NCBI GenBank assembly: GCA_964464605.1
Contig: CAYXJN010000005.1
Coordinates: 62,001-126,000, forward strand
DNA: 64,000 bases
Origin: an uncultured Ignavibacteriales bacterium
GTDB lineage: Bacteria > Zixibacteria > MSB-5A5 > GN15 > FEB-12
Reading direction: 5' to 3'
How positions within the stretch are numbered: position 1 is the stretch's first letter; every line of letters begins with the position of its first letter. The position numbers were made by a program. Shown here piece after piece: positions 36,001 through 42,000 of the stretch.

Positions 36001-39000
36001 GCCAAAAGAAGCAGGACAGAACGAAGGATGGTTTTCGTACGGGGTTTCACTAATTATTAATACCGCAGGCGGGGGCGGGAATACGGCCGCCGCGACGGAT
36101 AAAATCGGCAGAGGAAAACCGGGAGACCGGCATAATCGGGGCGGTTCCTAAAAGGCCGCCATACTCGACTGATTGACCGACTGTTTTGCCGGGAACCGGA
36201 ATAATACGGACGGCAGTGGTTTTGTTGTTCACCACACCGATAGCGGCTTCATCGGCAATAATCGCCGCGATAGTTTCAACTGGTGTATCACCGGGAACAG
36301 CGACCATATCAAGTCCGACTGAGCAGACAGCCGTCATCGCTTCCAATTTTTCAAGTGATATTGCACCTGCTTCGACTGCGCGAATCATACCGGCATCTTC
36401 AGAAACCGGAATGAACGCGCCGGATAACCCACCGACAAACGAGGAAGCCATCAACCCTCCTTTTTTCACCGCGTCATTCAGCAGCATGAGCGCTGCCGTA
36501 GTGCCGGGTGCGCCGCAGCGTTCGATTCCCATCGCTTCCAGAATATCCGCAACCGAATCTCCTTCGGCGGGAGTGGGGGCTAACGAGAGATCGACAATCC
36601 CAAACGGAACGCCGAGCCGTTCGGATACTTTTCGTCCTGCCAGTTCTCCCATACGGGTTACTTTAAAGGCAGTGCGTTTGATAACTTCAGCCAGCGTTCC
36701 GATATCACAGCTGCCTGCTTTGCGCACGGCGTTGAGTACGACGCCGGGGCCGGAGATACCGACATTGATAACCACTTCCGGTTCGGAAACGCCATGAAAG
36801 GCACCGGCAATGAACGGATTGTCTTCTACCGCATTGGCGAAGACGACCAATTTGCAGCAACCGAGCGCATTTTCCGTTTTGGCGGCGGTGTCTTTGATGA
36901 TATGACCCATCAGCGCGATCGCATCCATGTTGATTCCCGCTTTGGTCGAGGCGACATTTACCGATGAGCAGATTCGTTTAGTGGTAGCAAGGGCATCCGG
37001 AATCGATTCGATTAGGTTGCGATCACCGGTGGTCATCCCTTTTTGTACTAATGCGCCGTAGCCACCTAAATAATCGATACCGAGTTCTGCTGCGCAGTTG
37101 TCGAGTGTTTCGGCGATTTCGATGAGGGTCCCTTTATCATGTCCGCTTCCGACGATACCGATCGGGGTTACAGCGATTCTTTTGTTCGCGATCGGAATAC
37201 CGTAATCGGCGGAAACTTTCTCGACGGTTTTGACATGATGCTCTGCTTTGGCAAGCAGTTTGGCGCGGATATTGGCGATTAATCGCTTCGGGTCGGAAGT
37301 CGCACAATCCAACAGCGAAATGCCCATGGTGACGGTACGGATGTCGAGATGCTCGACTTCCGTCATATGAATCGTTTCGACTATTTCCTGCGGATGGTAT
37401 GACATAAAATTATGTACGAACGAAAAACGTTAAATACGGTGCATGTAGCGGAAGATGTCTTCATGCATGATGAACACCTTCATGCCCAGCTGCGTTTCGG
37501 TATCTTTGATCCGGTCACGTACCAGCGCAAAGTCCATTTTGCAGTCCTGAATATCGACAATCATGATCATCGAGAAAAAATCCTGCATGATTGTCTGCGA
37601 AATATCTTCGATATTGCAGTGCAGTTCCGCCAGCACTTTGGTAATGGCCGCGACAACGCCCGGGCGGTTTTTGCCGAAGGCCGCCACGATCACGCGGTTG
37701 CTTTGTCCCTGTGATATCTTGTTGTAAAGCCCGGAAACATCGCTCCCCGGTTCAGTGAAATTTGCCAGTGAAGATTTGGAATCCCGTGATGAGGCCGCGC
37801 AGGTGACAGCAGGAATCGACGGATTCCCCTGATCCTGTTTCATCGAATCGACGACTGAGTCGATTACCCGGCGGAGCGCTTTGGCATCAAGCGATGCGCC
37901 CATCCGCCCGACAACAATTTCCGTAATCCGGCTGATTTCCTGTTCAGAAAAATTCATGTGTTACGCGCGTGATGAGAATTGCGAACGTTCGGTGTATCGT
38001 TCGATCAGTTTTGCGGCGACGAACCCGATGATGATACCGGCAACGAATGAAGCCAGCCATTCCAGACGGCGTTTGGTTTGTTCGCTTAACGGTTTCATCC
38101 GGCTTTTTTCTTGTAATGAATTTTTTCGGGGTCCAAATCGCCGGTATAGAAGCTCGACTGTACTTCGTATTCGTCGATGATTCCGGTAACGGCTGCTTCG
38201 ATGGATGCGTTCTCATTCCCAATCGCCAAACGAGCGGCGCGGCCATAGGCGACAATCACCACTTCACCTTCGCCTGCACCGAGTACATCGGCTGCGACAA
38301 CGGTATCGGTATTCGGTGCTTTTTTCAGGTTAATGGGCTGGATAATGAGAAATTTGAGGCCATCGGTATTCGATGTTTTTCTCGTTGCCCAGAGTGTGCC
38401 GACGACGCGCCCGATAAACATGGCTAACCCAGTTTCAGCGCGCTCTTGAGGGCATCCACCAACTGCGCTTTGCCGGCCATCGAAATTTCCCGTCCCTTAA
38501 TGCTGAGGTTAGAAACGGTGCGGGCTAACTGACGAAGTTCAGTAACAGTCATGTTTTCAAGTTCATGCGCGGAGGTTGGCTGCTTGATACTATCGCCGCC
38601 ATATTGCGAGTCACTGTGAATCGAGCTTAAGGCAGGGCGATTATCGGGATTGTATTTCGATACATAACGCGCATCCGGCAGTATCGTTACCAGTTCATTG
38701 TCCGGGCGGGGGATAACAGTGGTAGCGACCACTTCACCTGCTTGTTCTGCTGCGCGAGCGCCGGCTTCAACGGCTGATTGCACTGCGCTGAGTTCACCTT
38801 CAATGCGAAGGGTAAGATAGGCGGCATCGGTAACTTCAGCGGAAGATACCACCACACCGGCCGCTTTTGCTGCTGCATCGGCGGCGACAATCGCGCCGAT
38901 AAGGCCGTTTGTTTCGATAAGTCCAAGTGCGAACATTGTCATTGGCCGAAGATACCCGCATTCAAACTTTCTGTAAATGAATACTTAGTGACGTTGTCAC

Positions 39001-42000
39001 CTTTCTCTTTTTGATCGCATGATTTACCCCAAAAAGAAACCACCCGTATCCCCCTCGGACACGAGTGGCACCCACCAAAGAGAAAAGAACAGACCGACTG
39101 CTTTACAGCGTCGGATTCAGGACACAAAATGTGTCGCAAATTTTTTGCCGTACCGATGTGGATAACGTGACCGGTTGTCGTATCGCATTGCAAGTCATTG
39201 CGTTACAGGGAGTGCGGCGCATCGAATGTGATGGAAATGAAAGAAAAAGTCGTATGATTTTACGAGCAGGTTGATCTAAATGAAAACGGTAAGCGATTGT
39301 TTTGTAATCACTTACCGTTTCATTTTGACTCTATTTGAGAACGGTACGAATTTCAGTAAAATTCGTGAAACCGTACGTTCTTTTGTCGTCTAATGGAGCG
39401 CAACTCCTTCAACATGAATCTGGTACCGCTTGATCTTCGAACGGACCGTTGCTTCATGAATTCCGAGCAGGCGGGCAGCTTCGGATTTGTTTCCTTTTGC
39501 CGCCAAGAGTGCATCGGTAAGCAGCTGACGTTCAAATTGCTCAATGCGATCGAAGAAGGTGGTCGATTGGACCGCCGTCGTGTTGGTAAACATCGGCCGG
39601 GCGAGTTCAACCAGATCACCGTTACCCAGTTCTTCTGCCTGAGCTTCCAAGCGTTTCACTTTGTTATAGAGTTCGCGCACATTACCCGGCCAATGATAGG
39701 CAAGGAATGTTTGTAACAGTTCTGCGCTGACTTTAAATCCGCGCTGTCCGAGTGTTCCATTCGTAATGAACAGATCAAGCAGCAGCGGGATATCTTCTTT
39801 CCGTTCACGCAGCGCTGGGATATAGTGAATATCTCCGTCACAGATGCGGAAATACAGATCACGGCGGAACAGACCGCCTTCAACAAGCGAGGTCAAATCC
39901 CGATTTGTGGCGCAGATTAGGTTGATATCCAGTTTGACGGGTACCGTGCCGCCGAGCGGAGTAACTTCCCGACGTTCGAGCACACCGAGCAGTTTGGCCT
40001 GTAAATGAAGCGGCATGTCGCCGATTTCATCCAGAAACAATACACCGCCGTTGGCCGCGACGAACAATCCGGCTTTGTCCTCACGTGCGTCGGTAAATGC
40101 ACCGCGGCGATAGCCGAACAATTCCGATTCCAAAAGGGAGTCAGGTACACCGGCACAGTTGATCGACACAAACGGCGTTCCCGGGCGAACCTTGGAATGG
40201 AAAAAACGCGCCATCTGATCTTTACCGACACCTGTTTCTCCCGTTAACAAAACGGGAAGATTGGAGCGTGAGCCGATCAGCACGATCTGCTGTTTTACCC
40301 GTTCGACCGCAGCACAGCGAGTGATGAAATCAGCACTCTGCTGTTTGCTCTGATCGCTGCCGGCGATTTTGCGCTGATTGGTTTGTTCGAGCGCTTCGCC
40401 GATTTTATCGATCATCGTCGTGTGTCCGGATTGCGCGTAATATTCTTCAGCGCGAATCAGGTGCAGTACCCGTTTGTTGACCGGTATAGCAGTTGCGCAG
40501 CCGGCAAAGTATAGGATTTCCGCTTCTTCGAATCGCACACCGGATTGACGGGCTGATTCGATTGCACGGGCCCAGAATTCCTTTGCGGTTTCCTGCTGTG
40601 TTTCCGCTTCGGCAATCATGGCTAAAATGCGGTGCAGTCCGGCAAGATCACCGGTATTCGGCGTTTCCTGCATGACCACGATCGCTTTCTGCGCCAGCTG
40701 ACGGGCAGTGCGATAGTCACGAAGCGAGAGATTAGTTTCGGCTAATTGGCGCATCACGCGCGCGGTTAAACCGGAATCAGGCAGTACCTGTTCGGATAAA
40801 CGCAACGCATGAGCCAATACCTGTTTGCTTTCTTCAAGCAAACCCATACGGCGGCGCAGTTCGCCGATGTAGCTGTAGTACATCACTTCATCTCGCTTGT
40901 CGCCTGATAAACGGAGCGGTGTTACCGCTTCGCTCAAGGTTGCATCCGCTTCGGCATAATGACCGGATTGGATACAGGCGTAGGCGTAGGACATAAGGGC
41001 ACGGGCTGTTTCGGCATGGTCACGCAACGCGCGGGAGAGTTCGATATTGGTGCGCAAATGCGCTTTTGCGGATTGCAAGTTTCCGGAGAACAGATGGATA
41101 CGGCCGATATTACCGGTCATCAGGGCAATTTTTGCCGTATCGTTAAGTTTGTGCGCGATTTCCAGTGCATCGGCCAGAACATTCAACGCATTTTTCAAAT
41201 CATGCTGCTTGAAATAAATTCCGGCGAGACTGTTCAGCGCCCGCGCCTGACCTTCCAACAGGTCAAGGCGACGGAAGAGTGATTCGGCATCACGGAATGC
41301 CTGTTCCGCTTCTTTCGGTTTATCACTCTTTTTGAAAATATTGCCCAGCACGAAGAAAACTTCTGCGAGTTCCGCGGTTTCTCCGTTTTGGGTAAGGAAA
41401 TGCTGCGCCATGCGGGCAGCTTTTAGTGCGGCTGTGAGGTCAGCCAGCGCGCTGTATGCAGAAGCGGCCATTCTCATGAGAATGCCGGATTCTGCATCGG
41501 CTCGCTGTTCAATAACGGGACGATGAATATCCACGTACCGGACCACACCCGCAAAATCCCGCTTTTCAAGTAATGTCGCGGCTATGCGAACATCAAATGA
41601 TGTGGGATTCGACGATTCTGTGAAGGTACGGTTCATCAGTTAGCTCCTCCATTTTTAACGGAGCTGTTGTCTGACGGAGCGGGTTGCGGAGCAACGCGCG
41701 GCTGTTTTGGTGCGATCAGGAGATTGAGTAAGGTGTTCGAAAGCCAGATTTCAAACCGCGGTGAAAGCGTAGCGCTTCGCATTGCCTGACGGCCTGCTTT
41801 ACCGCCGCCGTTACCATTCGTGCCGGAGCCATCGCCACCCCACGGGTGATCTTCATTTTCCACGCCATTTTCGGTATTAGCCGGACGGTGGTAATACGGA
41901 CTTTCCCGTCCGTCTATATCCCCCACAAAAGCAAGGGTGGCAGTGAAGAGCATACTCAAAGTGAGTACAAATGAGCGTTTCATGGACTAAGGCTCCTTTC

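What a model noticed while it worked through the whole genome (the two positions that open the first line are those of the whole stretch)
36050..41636. Microcompartment locus whose likely cargo is the unknown-function ACT/DUF711 (UPF0210) pair
C5 encodes, behind a sigma-54 activator gene, BMC-H, BMC-P, a 45-aa ORF, an ACT-domain protein and DUF711. A satellite at C11:45026-47697 adds a second BMC-H and an aldehyde dehydrogenase. The ACT protein and the dehydrogenase both carry N-terminal encapsulation-peptide-like helices with linkers, so ACT/DUF711 is proposed as the encapsulated signature enzyme of a microcompartment type not described so far. G000 has a reduced form that lacks the PduS-like and BMC-T genes of relatives.
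Evidence so far: - Gene content: Pfam calls 57, 76. - PDB: 2HA9 at 6e-167; 1ZPV covers only residues 88-175 of the ACT protein. - The extension is conserved, followed by a variable linker. - 48 ACT-DUF711 loci: 20 with the extension, 19 of them beside shell genes; 28 without it, 0 beside shell genes. - 151 genomes: 27 of 27 high-scoring DUF711 genomes have at least 2 BMC matches, and 20 of 27 have one within 10 kb. - Proteome scan: the top 2 of 40 hits are these two proteins; hydrophobic moments at the 98.9th and 99.2th percentile. - Synteny in G004, G009, G010. - The reduced locus lies whole in contigs of runs from three studies.
(Added by a program. Inside this text positions count along the whole contig: contig position 62,001 is position 1 of the stretch shown here. 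"Call 12" and the like, gene names such as g00115 and contig names such as C1 are that model's own, and its searches are not shown. The text may have been shortened before it was handed on; [...] marks where a part breaks off. The agent that wrote the report below was given it as the finding of a first reader that could run no searches.)

Follow-up and report, generated by a model that had tools for sequence, protein, structure and literature searches.

The report
Microcompartment locus carrying tagged GlyXS/GlyXL enzyme
A small bacterial microcompartment gene cluster in a Zixibacteria genome seems to package an enzyme pair that was recently linked to making glyoxylate, which would give a group of so far unexplained microcompartments a candidate core reaction.

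Summary
On the minus strand of 36050-41636 lie a TPR/sigma-54 activator, a BMC-H with a tail, a BMC-P, a 45-aa ORF, an ACT protein with an 87-residue N-terminal extension, and DUF711. A satellite locus on contig C11 adds a BMC-H and a PduP/EutE-type aldehyde dehydrogenase.

Two points need correcting. First, the ACT/DUF711 pair is no longer of unknown function. PLoS Genet 2026 (PMC13759103) names it GlyXS/GlyXL, shows genetically that it supports glycine synthesis, and proposes that it makes glyoxylate, which is an aldehyde. Second, shell gene sets like these were already catalogued as FRAG or MIC types without a signature enzyme.

The extension looks like an encapsulation peptide: two amphipathic helices followed by a variable, disordered linker. 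In my samples it occurs only in genomes with shell genes:
- 29 of 29 GlyXL-type DUF711 genomes among 151 Zixibacteria have BMC-P.
- 26 of 26 DUF711 genomes among 121 Ignavibacteria have BMC-P.
- Two BMC-rich Firmicutes carry the short form without the extension.

All extension-bearing pairs fall in one DUF711 clade, so the origin was a single event. However, pair and shell are present or absent together in four genera.

Best reading (0.6): GlyXS carries GlyXL into the shell, where an aldehyde, perhaps glyoxylate, is made and passed to the dehydrogenase. There is no binding or bench test; complex prediction never ran.

The parts
41636..41983 (-). 115-aa small protein gene with a hydrophobic N-terminus. 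Its stop overlaps the start of the activator gene. It is possibly a partner of the regulator, and it is not shown to belong to the microcompartment.
   Evidence: ORF, with no Pfam family. A similar 110-118-aa ORF sits directly upstream of the activator in L006, L007 and L008; blastp supports only the L008 match (E 3e-4). L097 also has a 117-aa ORF there with no Pfam family.
39390..41636 (-). Sigma-54-dependent transcriptional activator. It has an N-terminal TPR sensor region, an AAA+ Sigma54_activat domain and an HTH_8 domain, and no receiver domain.
   Evidence: Pfam. Orthologues of 48% identity stand upstream of the shell genes in L006, L007 and L008 and in L097.
39135..39150 (-). Sigma-54 type -24/-12 element (GG-N10-GC spacing), about 208 nt upstream of the BMC-H start codon.
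   Evidence: Sequence read. A regex scan found one such element in the activator-to-BMC-H spacer of the window and of L006, L007 and L097, but none in L008. The consensus used is recalled. A window-wide scan with 2 mismatches was not above chance, so this is a lead only.
38424..38942 (-). BMC-H shell hexamer protein. The BMC domain covers residues 5-80, followed by a C-terminal tail of about 80 residues.
   Evidence: PF00936, E 1.1e-20. The tail is shared with relatives (blastp over residues 102-171).
38095..38421 (-). BMC-P shell vertex pentamer protein, the only one in the genome.
   Evidence: PF03319, E 1.3e-26. One match in G000. 73-83% identical to relatives.
37961..38098 (-). 45-aa ORF with one hydrophobic stretch. 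It occupies the place where relatives have the PduS-like and BMC-T genes. Its status is uncertain.
   Evidence: No family hit. No significant similarity to the PduS/BMC-T region of five relatives (best protein E 0.28-0.7).
37799..37957 (-). Conserved N-terminal extension of the ACT protein (residues 1-53). It has two predicted amphipathic helices (5-18 and 25-41) and is proposed to be an encapsulation peptide.
   Evidence: Alignments. AlphaFold2 model. Hydrophobic moment rank 42 of 2317.
37697..37798 (-). Variable linker rich in Ser, Pro and Thr (residues 54-87), with low model confidence over most of its length.
   Evidence: Length and sequence vary among 7 relatives. pLDDT is below 50 at residues 50-57 and 63-67, and the 10-residue block means for 41-80 are 60, 47, 48 and 56. 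The model places a short helix at 76-82.
37430..37696 (-). ACT domain of the GlyXS-type regulatory subunit (residues 88-175, plus the stop codon).
   Evidence: ACT_6 PF13740. PRK00194 at 104 bits, above the cut-off of 74. 1ZPV. pLDDT above 90.
36050..37405 (-). DUF711 / UPF0210, the GlyXL-type catalytic subunit. It has no terminal extension of its own.
   Evidence: PF05167, 621 bits. 2HA9 at 6e-167, aligned over residues 6-448. R23, R76, E336 and R400 are invariant in 29 sequences.

Best explanation
The locus encodes a small aldehyde-processing microcompartment (metabolosome), and its signature enzyme is the GlyXS/GlyXL pair.

Proposed steps:
1. Inferred: the TPR/sigma-54 activator switches on the operon from a -24/-12 promoter.
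2. Shown only as gene content: BMC-H, the satellite BMC-H and the single BMC-P build the shell.
3. Inferred from sequence and co-occurrence: the 53-residue two-helix N-terminus of the ACT subunit (GlyXS), held on a flexible linker, acts as an encapsulation peptide.
4. Inferred, not tested: GlyXL (DUF711) has no tag of its own and enters the shell bound to GlyXS.
5. Inferred: inside the shell GlyXL makes an aldehyde. The published proposal for this family is glyoxylate.
6. Inferred: the separately tagged PduP/EutE-type acylating dehydrogenase oxidises that aldehyde to an acyl-CoA, which would be oxalyl-CoA if the aldehyde is glyoxylate, and yields NADH.
7. Inferred: in relatives, a PduS-like flavo-iron-sulfur protein and a PduT-like BMC-T would carry the electrons out. 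G000 has lost both genes, so it must recycle NAD+ some other way.
For: 1. Gene content and order.

2. Conserved core. BMC-H, BMC-P, PduS-like, BMC-T, ACT with extension and DUF711 stand in this order in 5 Zixibacteria relatives and in L031, L032, L129 and L130. No other enzyme is conserved there.

3. The extension has the anatomy of an encapsulation peptide.
- Helices at 5-18 and 25-41, then a low-confidence segment, then a confident ACT fold.
- A conserved head and a variable linker.
- Ignavibacteria versions keep the first helix pattern.

4. The satellite dehydrogenase is built the same way. A conserved N-terminal helix is followed by a variable linker of 45-60 residues in G000 and in 5 of 5 orthologues read. 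Each gene sits behind a canonical BMC-H; this holds for 9 of 9 orthologues.

5. Co-occurrence.
- Zixibacteria phylum sample of 151 genomes: 29 have a GlyXL-type DUF711, and all 29 have BMC-P. Within family f1, 22 have both, 33 have neither and none is discordant.
- Ignavibacteria class sample of 121 genomes: 26 have DUF711, and all 26 have BMC-P, against 48 of 121 overall. In 25 of the 26 the ACT gene matches through its N-terminal extension; the 26th is cut by a contig start.
- Five of 5 genomes whose tagged pair has no BMC-H or BMC-T in the fetched flank (L036 has only a BMC-P beside it) have BMC-domain genes elsewhere.

6. More than one event. Genera g37 (1 of 2), g43 (3 of 4), g44 (1 of 2) and g68 (1 of 4) are split, and in each the pair and its BMC-P go together. 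In g68, G225 has 5 BMC-P genes, and the three genomes without the pair have 4.

7. Specificity controls.
- By my own ORF calls (first start codon after a stop), 51 of the 54 loci without the homologous extension have ACT ORFs of 88-132 aa, and none of the 51 has shell genes in the flank. The other three are L037, L038 and L040, whose 156-aa ORFs carry an unrelated N-terminal module and also lack shell genes.
- Two Firmicutes genomes with 10 and 22 BMC-domain matches still have the 89-aa form.
- Six Zixibacteria of family f16 have a divergent DUF711 and no BMC-P. The three whose loci I fetched have no ACT neighbour.

8. Chemistry fits. PMC13759103 gives genetic evidence for GlyXL/GlyXS and proposes that they make glyoxylate, an aldehyde (preprint section 5 read whole; passages of the published version). 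Metabolosomes pair an aldehyde-forming enzyme with exactly this kind of dehydrogenase (general knowledge; passages of PMC8217296). The window protein aligns with 2HA9 over its whole length and keeps four invariant charged residues close to the published pocket numbering.
Against: - Nothing shows encapsulation, GlyXS-GlyXL binding or peptide-shell binding.
- All extension-bearing pairs sit in one DUF711 clade of 20 rows (SH-aLRT 98) on a quick tree whose careful search did not finish. The tag arose once, and much of the co-occurrence is inherited.
- 22 of 48 Ignavibacteria and 8 of 37 Zixibacteria genomes with BMC-P lack DUF711. The shell therefore does not need this cargo.
- In Ignavibacteria the dehydrogenase homologues are only 27-41% identical. 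They were found in 5 of 5 DUF711-bearing genomes and in 4 of 5 genomes without DUF711, so the dehydrogenase is tied to the shell and not to GlyXL.
- The extension is longer than a classical 15-20-residue peptide. In Zixibacteria it ends in a conserved Gly-Asn-Pro ... Thr-Cys stretch of unknown role.
- Its hydrophobic moment is high but not exceptional (rank 42 of 2317).
- Most organisms run GlyXL/GlyXS without any microcompartment, so its product need not be confined.
- The glyoxylate product is itself only proposed. Table 1 of PMC13759103 says biochemical proof is lacking.
- G000 lacks BMC-T, PduS, PduL and a BMC-P triplet, so its own compartment may be impaired.
Confidence: 0.6

Rival explanations
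1. GlyXS/GlyXL is functionally coupled to the microcompartment but works outside it. The N-terminal helices would be a regulatory, oligomerisation or shell-surface docking element. The pair would then supply or remove a metabolite of the compartment's pathway, or sense glycine for it, from the cytosol.
For: - The co-occurrence data show coupling, not location.
- GlyXL itself has no tag (451 aa, like untagged homologues).
- The extension has two helices and a conserved tail motif, which is unlike a minimal peptide.
- The shell exists without the pair in 22 Ignavibacteria and 8 Zixibacteria genomes.
- ACT domains are usually regulatory (PMC13759103).
Against: - The dehydrogenase, an accepted class of lumen enzyme, has the same helix-plus-variable-linker build.
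- The ACT gene follows BMC-T directly inside the shell operon.
- Homologues in BMC-rich Firmicutes lack the extension.
Confidence: 0.2
2. In G000 the system is a decaying remnant. Loss of the PduS-like and BMC-T genes left a shell set that no longer forms a working compartment, and GlyXS/GlyXL now serves ordinary glycine or glyoxylate metabolism.
For: - G000 lacks genes that all six relatives examined keep.
- It has only two BMC-H genes and one BMC-P gene.
- L029 shows another deletion, one that fused the PduS N-terminus to the ACT domain and removed the tag.
- G207 holds only a 47-residue DUF711 fragment and a BMC-P with an internal stop.
- These cases show that such loci do decay.
Against: - Every remaining gene is intact and 53-83% identical to its relatives.
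- The tag and the linker are kept.
- The satellite BMC-H and dehydrogenase are intact.
- The same sequence, without a single difference, is found in contigs from three studies.
- BMC-H plus BMC-P can suffice for closed shells in other systems (recalled, not tested here).
Confidence: 0.12
3. The association is inherited gene order with no functional meaning, and the extension is a lineage-specific addition unrelated to microcompartments.
For: Extension-bearing pairs have a single origin. The sampled genomes are kin.
Against: - The link survives loss of synteny. In Ignavibacteria and in Zixibacteria family f8 the pair, the ACT gene and the shell genes lie on different contigs, yet they still co-occur: 26 of 26, and 3 of 3.
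- Four genera are split, with concordant presence or absence.
Confidence: 0.05

Closest known systems
GlyXL/GlyXS (DUF711/UPF0210 plus its ACT partner), the glyoxylate and glycine synthesis pair of Price et al., PLoS Genet 2026 (PMC13759103)
   Same: - The same two families, in the same order: the ACT gene directly upstream of DUF711.
- The window's DUF711 aligns with S. pneumoniae GlyXL (2HA9) over residues 6-448 at 6e-167.
- The ACT domain is PF13740.
- Four charged residues are invariant close to the published pocket positions.
   Different: - The ACT subunit here has an 87-residue N-terminal addition that the studied proteins, as described, lack.
- The genes sit in a shell-protein operon under a sigma-54 activator.
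- The genome also has glyA, and 33 of 55 genomes of the same family lack the pair. It is therefore not the only glycine route here.
- The paper does not mention microcompartments in either version.
FRAG and MIC microcompartment types (Sutter et al. 2021, PMC8217296; Axen et al. 2014, PMC4207490)
   Same: - An aldehyde dehydrogenase is present, often on a satellite locus, with an incomplete metabolosome core and no recognised signature enzyme.
- Shell genes lie in more than one place.
- The lineages overlap: Ignavibacteria and related candidate phyla, and a Caldithrix locus with PduS (passages).
- Ignavibacteria kin with the tagged pair show the BMC-P triplet and scattered shell genes.
   Different: - Zixibacteria of family f1 have one BMC-P, not three.
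- They also have a compact operon that joins the shell genes to GlyXS/GlyXL.
- No PF05167 model is in the catalogue's HMM table.
- I could not read which type names, if any, the catalogue gives these loci.
PDU and EUT metabolosomes with N-terminal encapsulation peptides, where an untagged subunit rides in with a tagged one
   Same: - A PduP/EutE-type acylating dehydrogenase (NF011927) carries an N-terminal helix and linker.
- The shell is built from BMC-H and BMC-P.
- Relatives add PduS-like and PduT-like genes (TIGR02526 aligned full-length at 132.6 bits, below the cut-off of 250.3).
- Piggy-back import of untagged subunits is known for diol dehydratase (recalled).
   Different: - There is no B12 enzyme, no PduL and no alcohol dehydrogenase in the locus.
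- The tagged protein is a small regulatory ACT subunit rather than a catalytic one.
ACI and MIC3 loci, which hold an ACT-domain protein (catalogue model HMM01842act_1_acimic3)
   Same: An ACT-domain gene was recorded within microcompartment loci, and the dehydrogenase of ACI loci is on a satellite locus.
   Different: ACI is described with a class II aldolase, a hydroxyacid dehydrogenase and a BMC-P triplet, and MIC3 with a CcmP-like BMC-T. None of these was seen in the window locus. I could not test whether that ACT protein is a GlyXS.

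Membership tests
Bacterial microcompartment (metabolosome) | BMC-H shell protein (PF00936) | tested here: met
   Two genes in G000: window 38424-38942 and C11 45831-46058.
Bacterial microcompartment (metabolosome) | BMC-P vertex protein (PF03319) | tested here: met
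   One gene, window 38095-38421.
Bacterial microcompartment (metabolosome) | BMC-T tandem-domain shell protein | tested here: not met
   G000 has none. Relatives have a 183-aa PduT-like gene.
Bacterial microcompartment (metabolosome) | Acylating aldehyde dehydrogenase with a targeting peptide | tested here: met
   NF011927 at 591.8 bits, above the cut-off of 403. The N-terminal helix and linker are conserved in 5 of 5 orthologues read. Targeting itself is not shown.
Bacterial microcompartment (metabolosome) | Phosphotransacylase (PduL, PF06130) for CoA recycling | tested here: not met
   No match in the 100% complete genome. Pta-type enzymes were not searched.
Bacterial microcompartment (metabolosome) | Polyhedral shells that enclose the enzymes | not testable with these tools
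   Needs microscopy or purification.
Encapsulation peptide | Terminal amphipathic helix of about 15-20 residues | tested here: met
   Helices at 5-18 and 25-41. Hydrophobic moment in the top 2% of 2317 ORFs. There are two helices rather than one.
Encapsulation peptide | Poorly conserved flexible linker to the folded domain | tested here: met
   Variable in length and sequence. pLDDT is about 47-60 over residues 41-80.
Encapsulation peptide | Absent from homologues that are not microcompartment-associated | tested here: met
   By my own ORF calls, 51 loci have 88-132-aa ACT ORFs and no shell genes. Three more (L037, L038, L040) carry a different N-terminal module and also lack shell genes. Two BMC-rich Firmicutes have the short form. 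All carriers of the extension are kin.
Encapsulation peptide | Sufficient and necessary for targeting to the lumen | not testable with these tools
   Complex prediction could not be run. A bench test is needed.
GlyXL/GlyXS | DUF711 protein orthologous to 2HA9 / B. breve GlyXL | tested here: met
   6e-167, aligned over 443 residues. PF05167 at 621 bits. NCBIfam PRK05313 at 717 bits, above the cut-off of 440.
GlyXL/GlyXS | Adjacent same-strand single ACT (PF13740) partner | tested here: met
   24 bases lie between the two genes.
GlyXL/GlyXS | Charged pocket (R22, R75, R403, E339 in B. breve numbering) | tested here: inconclusive
   R23, R76, R400 and E336 are invariant in 29 sequences. The mapping rests on near-equal numbering; I did not align to the B. 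breve protein.
GlyXL/GlyXS | Supports glycine synthesis or makes glyoxylate | not testable with these tools
   Genetic evidence exists only for other organisms.
FRAG-type microcompartment (Sutter 2021) | BMC-P triplet | tested here: not met
   One BMC-P in G000 and in 5 relatives. Three in Ignavibacteria kin that carry the tagged pair.
FRAG-type microcompartment (Sutter 2021) | Shell genes scattered over several genomic places, remote from known enzymes | tested here: inconclusive
   G000 has two places. G042-G045 have three or more. The type assignment in Supplementary Data 2 is unreadable.
MIC (metabolosome with incomplete core) | Aldehyde dehydrogenase present, but neither PTAC nor alcohol dehydrogenase | tested here: met
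   Alcohol dehydrogenase was checked only within the two loci, not genome-wide.

The most novel reading that the evidence does not exclude
This is a natural glyoxylate metabolosome. GlyXL, carried in by peptide-tagged GlyXS, makes glyoxylate inside a protein shell. A tagged acylating dehydrogenase turns it into oxalyl-CoA. A PduS-like and PduT-like pair wires the electrons out. The same tagged pair would be the missing signature enzyme of a subset of the enigmatic FRAG/MIC microcompartments across Zixibacteria, Ignavibacteria and their neighbours.
Probability: 0.3. Interest if true: 0.85.

Novelty: new variant of a known kind. Interest (0 to 1): 0.75.

Why it matters
The 2021 catalogue lists many metabolosome types that have a dehydrogenase but no enzyme known to make the aldehyde, and it calls the FRAG types enigmatic (passages). 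A tagged GlyXS/GlyXL gives a concrete, testable candidate for part of them.

The finding also bears on GlyXL itself, a very widespread enzyme (885 genera according to PMC13759103) whose reaction is still unknown. Being placed in a compartment next to an acylating aldehyde dehydrogenase is independent support, from genome context, for the idea that its product is an aldehyde.

The extension is widespread. Of the 150 best cluster representatives from 1.84 billion proteins, 148 showed the ACT domain and 93 of those have 35 or more residues before it. Of those 93, 39 match a simple amphipathic pattern, against 5.7% of control stretches. Some of the 93 will be mis-called start codons.

The compact Zixibacteria operon would also be a small, tractable set of parts for shell and targeting experiments.

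Tried and rejected
Each time it was not accepted because the queue was full, and on the last try the machine gave no usable answer. No verdict exists.
- No RNA holder is listed among the sequencing runs, so nothing can be said on expression.
- A profile of the extension found no other protein in the six-frame translation of G000 (best other hit E 0.49). It did not find the dehydrogenase peptide either. A shared-sequence tag is therefore not shown, and no further cargo was found.
- A word-based search for longer proteins sharing residues 1-45 found none (11 candidates, none scored). The tool itself calls this weak evidence.
- The idea that the 45-aa ORF is a scar of the PduS or BMC-T genes is not supported.
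- A second N-terminal module (Thr-Pro-x-Ala-Arg-Asp type) occurs on 16 of 93 extended homologues. It gives only sub-threshold hits to PDU_like (E 0.0013-0.023, 3 of 7 proteins). I asked whether it marks another microcompartment link: 0 of 3 genomes carrying it have any BMC-domain gene, so the idea is rejected.
- A window-wide scan for the sigma-54 promoter consensus was not above chance (21 matches against 28.5 expected). Only the positional conservation in relatives counts.
- The hydrophobic moment alone does not single out the two proteins (ranks 33 and 42).
- Literature searches that found nothing on the link:
  - 'PF05167': 0 papers.
  - 'bacterial microcompartment' with 'ACT domain': 0 papers.
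  - 'DUF711': 2 papers, neither about microcompartments.
  - 'UPF0210': 5 papers; from their titles and abstract starts, proteomics or taxonomy studies (listing only).
  - 'Zixibacteria' with 'microcompartment': 3 papers. I opened one and found only a reference-list mention.
  - 'GlyXL': one work.
  - 'bacterial microcompartment', 'glyoxylate', 'oxalyl-CoA': 166 papers hold at least two of the three terms. None of the 12 listed is on a natural glyoxylate compartment, judged from the listing only.
- The careful tree search did not finish in the time allowed, so I used the quick tree.

Full report
WHAT IS THERE

The coordinates in the finding are window coordinates. All genes lie on the minus strand:
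- 39390-41636: a 748-aa activator with TPR repeats, a Sigma54_activat domain and HTH_8.
- 38424-38942: a 172-aa BMC-H, with the BMC domain at residues 5-80 and a tail behind it.
- 38095-38421: a 108-aa BMC-P.
- 37961-38098: a 45-aa ORF with no family hit.
- 37430-37957: a 175-aa protein whose ACT domain covers only residues 88-175.
- 36050-37405: a 451-aa DUF711 protein (621 bits).

A penicillin-amidase gene abuts the locus downstream, and gyrA lies upstream.

The genome is 2.8 Mb in 18 contigs and 100% complete. It has just two BMC-domain genes, one BMC-P gene and no PduL.

The second BMC-H is on contig C11. It stands behind an HTH_11 regulator and in front of a 511-aa aldehyde dehydrogenase of the PduP/EutE subfamily (NF011927, 591.8 bits, cut-off 403).

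Record titles of close relatives place the organism among Zixibacteria; some automated labels say Ignavibacteriales.

THE REDUCED FORM

Seven genomes of the same family have the ACT protein with its extension. I fetched the locus from six of the other genomes.
- Five show the order activator (in three), BMC-H, BMC-P, a 440-aa PduS-like flavo-iron-sulfur protein (rnfC subfamily), a 183-aa PduT-like BMC-T, the extended ACT gene, often a variable insert, then DUF711.
- The sixth is a 4.4-kb contig.
- G000 has the 45-aa ORF in place of PduS-like plus BMC-T. I found no significant trace of the lost genes in that ORF.

The arrangement is not an assembly error. Stretch 36050-39400 lies whole and without a difference in single contigs of runs from three studies. 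A contig from a fourth study bridges 37299-39341. One of these studies may be the source of the genome.

A different deletion occurs in L029. There the first ~55 residues of PduS are fused to the ACT domain, and the extension is gone.

THE EXTENSION

Residues 1-53 are conserved in seven Zixibacteria sequences, and the next ~35 residues vary in length and composition.

An AlphaFold2 model built on 29 sequences gives helices at 5-18 and 25-41, low confidence over roughly residues 42-75, and a confident ACT fold.

More distant versions keep the first helix pattern and usually a second helix. They come from records labelled Ignavibacteria, Chlorobiota, Bacteroidia and Acidobacteriota.

The dehydrogenase has the same build. 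A conserved N-terminal helix is followed by a variable linker of 45-60 residues in G000 and in five of five orthologues read, each behind a canonical BMC-H.

To my recollection both look like classical encapsulation peptides; I ran no comparison with known ones. By hydrophobic moment they rank 33rd and 42nd of 2317 ORFs. That is high but not unique.

CO-OCCURRENCE WITH SHELL GENES

I fetched 80 ACT-DUF711 loci from one genome per species.
- 24 matched the query from residue 1-3, and two more (L035, L042) showed the first helix. That makes 26 loci with the extension.
- 21 of these 26 have shell genes inside the fetched flank, judged by my own profiles and checked with Pfam for subsets.
- The other five are L017 (a 4.4-kb contig), L023, L034, L035 and L042.
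- Of the 54 loci without the extension, only L029, the deletion form, has shell genes.
- The genomes of L023, L034, L035, L036 and L042 all have BMC-domain genes elsewhere (5 of 5). They have one to four BMC-P genes.
- In the four genomes outside the window's family (G042-G045), PduS-like plus BMC-T sit at one place in three; G045's BMC-T lies at a contig end. Two BMC-domain genes sit at another place. G042, G043 and G045 have a BMC-P triplet and G044 has four BMC-P genes. This is the FRAG pattern of the 2021 catalogue.

Zixibacteria, phylum-wide sample of 151 genomes:
- 35 have DUF711. Of these, 29 are of the GlyXL type (families f1, f7 and f8; this count includes fragments in G007 and G207, a split gene in G219 and a partial gene in G273).
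- All 29 have BMC-P.
- Six genomes of family f16 have a divergent DUF711 of about 316-358 bits (one, G252, is an 80-bit fragment) and no BMC-P. The three whose loci I fetched have no ACT neighbour.
- Eight genomes have BMC-P without DUF711, and 108 have neither.
- In family f1, 22 of 55 have both and 33 have neither.
- Genera g37, g43 and g44 are split, with both features going together.
- In genus g68 the one genome with DUF711 has five BMC-P genes, and the three without have four.

Ignavibacteria, class sample of 121 genomes:
- 26 have DUF711, and all 26 have BMC-P, against 48 of 121 overall.
- 22 have BMC-P only, and 73 have neither.
- In 25 of the 26 the ACT gene matches through its extension; the last is cut by a contig start.

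The 41 nearest relatives:
- The dehydrogenase orthologue (60% identity or more) is in 9 genomes. These are the 8 with DUF711 plus G024, which is 71% complete.
- 16 genomes have some BMC domain. Eight of these have only one or two hits and lack DUF711.

Zixibacteria family f8: DUF711, the extended ACT gene and BMC-P lie on separate contigs, yet all three are present in 3 of 3 genomes.

LIMITS OF THAT EVIDENCE

- In a quick maximum-likelihood tree of 65 DUF711 proteins, every extension-bearing locus falls in one clade of 20 rows (SH-aLRT 98).
- Three of those rows were labelled 'no extension' only because my ORF caller started late or the match was weak (L013, L015, L036).
- The careful search did not finish.
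- The tag therefore arose once, and raw counts overstate independence. The split genera and the survival of the link after loss of synteny are the parts that go beyond inheritance.
- The shell clearly exists without this cargo.
- In Ignavibacteria the dehydrogenase homologues are only 27-41% identical. They occurred in 5 of 5 genomes with DUF711 and in 4 of 5 without it.

CONTROLS FOR SPECIFICITY

- Acetobacterium tundrae and Eubacterium aggregans have 10 and 22 BMC-domain matches, but their ACT protein is the short 89-aa form. A microcompartment somewhere in the genome therefore does not by itself go with the extension.
- The sister clade (L037, L038, L040) has a different N-terminal module, and none of its three genomes has a shell gene.

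WHAT THE PAIR DOES

Price et al. (PLoS Genet 2026, PMC13759103) call DUF711 GlyXL and the ACT protein GlyXS. I read section 5 of the preprint whole and passages of the published text. They report the following:
- Both genes are needed without glycine in Bifidobacterium breve and Methanococcus maripaludis.
- They propose that the pair makes glyoxylate, which a transaminase then converts to glycine.
- They name 2HA9 as S. pneumoniae GlyXL.
- Their Table 1 states that biochemical proof is lacking.
- Neither version mentions microcompartments or encapsulation.

The window protein aligns with 2HA9 end to end. It keeps R23, R76, E336 and R400, which are invariant in 29 sequences and lie close to the published pocket numbers. 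I infer that mapping; I did not align to the B. breve protein.

G000 also has glyA.

MECHANISM

Glyoxylate is an aldehyde. Metabolosomes enclose an aldehyde-forming signature enzyme together with an acylating aldehyde dehydrogenase (general knowledge; passages). My best reading is therefore this:
- Tagged GlyXS brings untagged GlyXL into the shell.
- The product is handed to the tagged dehydrogenase, giving an acyl-CoA (oxalyl-CoA if the aldehyde is glyoxylate) and NADH.
- In relatives, PduS-like and the PduT-like BMC-T pass the electrons out. The conserved cysteine in the BMC-T matches what I recall of PduT; I did not test this.
- A -24/-12 element sits 208 nt upstream of BMC-H. Similar elements lie in three of four relatives' spacers, which fits control by the adjacent activator.

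Only gene content, sequence features and co-occurrence are shown. Targeting, subunit binding and chemistry are inferred.

COMPARISON AND NOVELTY

- The system works like a PDU/EUT-type metabolosome but lacks PduL, BMC-T and an alcohol dehydrogenase. By the catalogue's rules it is a MIC.
- Its Ignavibacteria kin look like FRAG.
- The catalogue's HMM table lists an ACT model for ACI and MIC3 loci but nothing for PF05167.
- The type descriptions are in a PDF that I could not read, and most of the tree files were cut. These supplements may bear on the claim of novelty.
- None of my ten literature searches found the link between GlyXL or DUF711 and microcompartments in print.
- I rate it a new variant of a known kind.

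VERDICT

Confidence that GlyXS/GlyXL is encapsulated cargo is 0.6, and confidence in the glyoxylate to oxalyl-CoA chemistry is 0.3. Interest is 0.75.

Noticed in passing
window 41636-41983 (-): A 115-aa protein gene with a hydrophobic N-terminus overlaps the start of the activator gene. ORFs of 110-118 aa sit in the same place in L006, L007 and L008, and share a short Asp-His-Pro-Trp-Gly-Gly stretch in the printed N-termini. Only the L008 copy gave a blastp hit to it (E 3e-4). It may be a partner of the regulator.
   Followed up: partly
L029:4954-5493 (+): A 180-aa ORF joins the first ~55 residues of the PduS-like protein (Complex1_51K hit at residues 11-53) to the ACT domain (93-166), directly after BMC-H and BMC-P. 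This is a second, different deletion of PduS/BMC-T, and it also removed the extension.
   Followed up: partly
P0024, P0039, P0047, P0068, P0082, P0103, P0132; L037:9800-10267: Another kind of N-terminal module (about 45 residues, with a Thr-Pro-x-Ala-Arg-Asp motif) precedes the ACT domain in 16 of 93 extended homologues. Hits to the end of the PDU_like (PduM) family are sub-threshold. Three genomes carrying it have no BMC genes. Several proteins have this module followed by an amphipathic helix.
   Followed up: partly
L125, L126, L127 (Zixibacteria family f16): A divergent, shorter DUF711 (382-406 aa; phmmer E about 1e-33 to 1e-36 against the window protein) stands alone, with no ACT gene and no shell genes. 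It is probably a separate subfamily.
   Followed up: partly
L006 8157-9772, L007 7989-9794, L009 7894-9741, L008 10308-11069: Relatives carry unrelated inserts of 0.8-1.8 kb between the ACT gene and DUF711. These hold small ORFs, and in L009 a 416-aa and a 192-aa ORF. The pair is therefore often split inside the operon.
   Followed up: no
window 33714-36050 (-): A penicillin-amidase family gene with a signal-like N-terminus starts at the last base of the DUF711 stop codon. An orthologue of 42% identity lies downstream of DUF711 in G016 as well, behind a 237-aa ORF that I did not annotate.
   Followed up: no
L095:11697-13901 (+): In the Bacteroidia genome G044, an ADP-forming acyl-CoA synthetase type gene (CoA_binding_2, Succ_CoA_lig, ATP-grasp_5) lies divergently next to PduS-like and BMC-T. 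It is a possible way to recycle CoA and gain ATP without PduL.
   Followed up: no
G207:C95:26665-26907 and G207:C118:2215-2355: This genome holds only a 47-residue DUF711 fragment and a BMC-P with an internal stop codon. Both look decayed together.
   Followed up: no
window 36050-39400: The stretch occurs nearly or fully identical in bioreactor, activated-sludge, aquaculture and sludge metagenome runs of several studies. The organism therefore seems common in engineered water systems.
   Followed up: partly
L035 and L090 (record labelled Acidobacteriota) against L034 and L093 (Ignavibacteria): The two genomes share almost the same gene order around PduS-like and BMC-T, and their DUF711 proteins are near neighbours in the tree. 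The Acidobacteriota label of that bin may be wrong.
   Followed up: no
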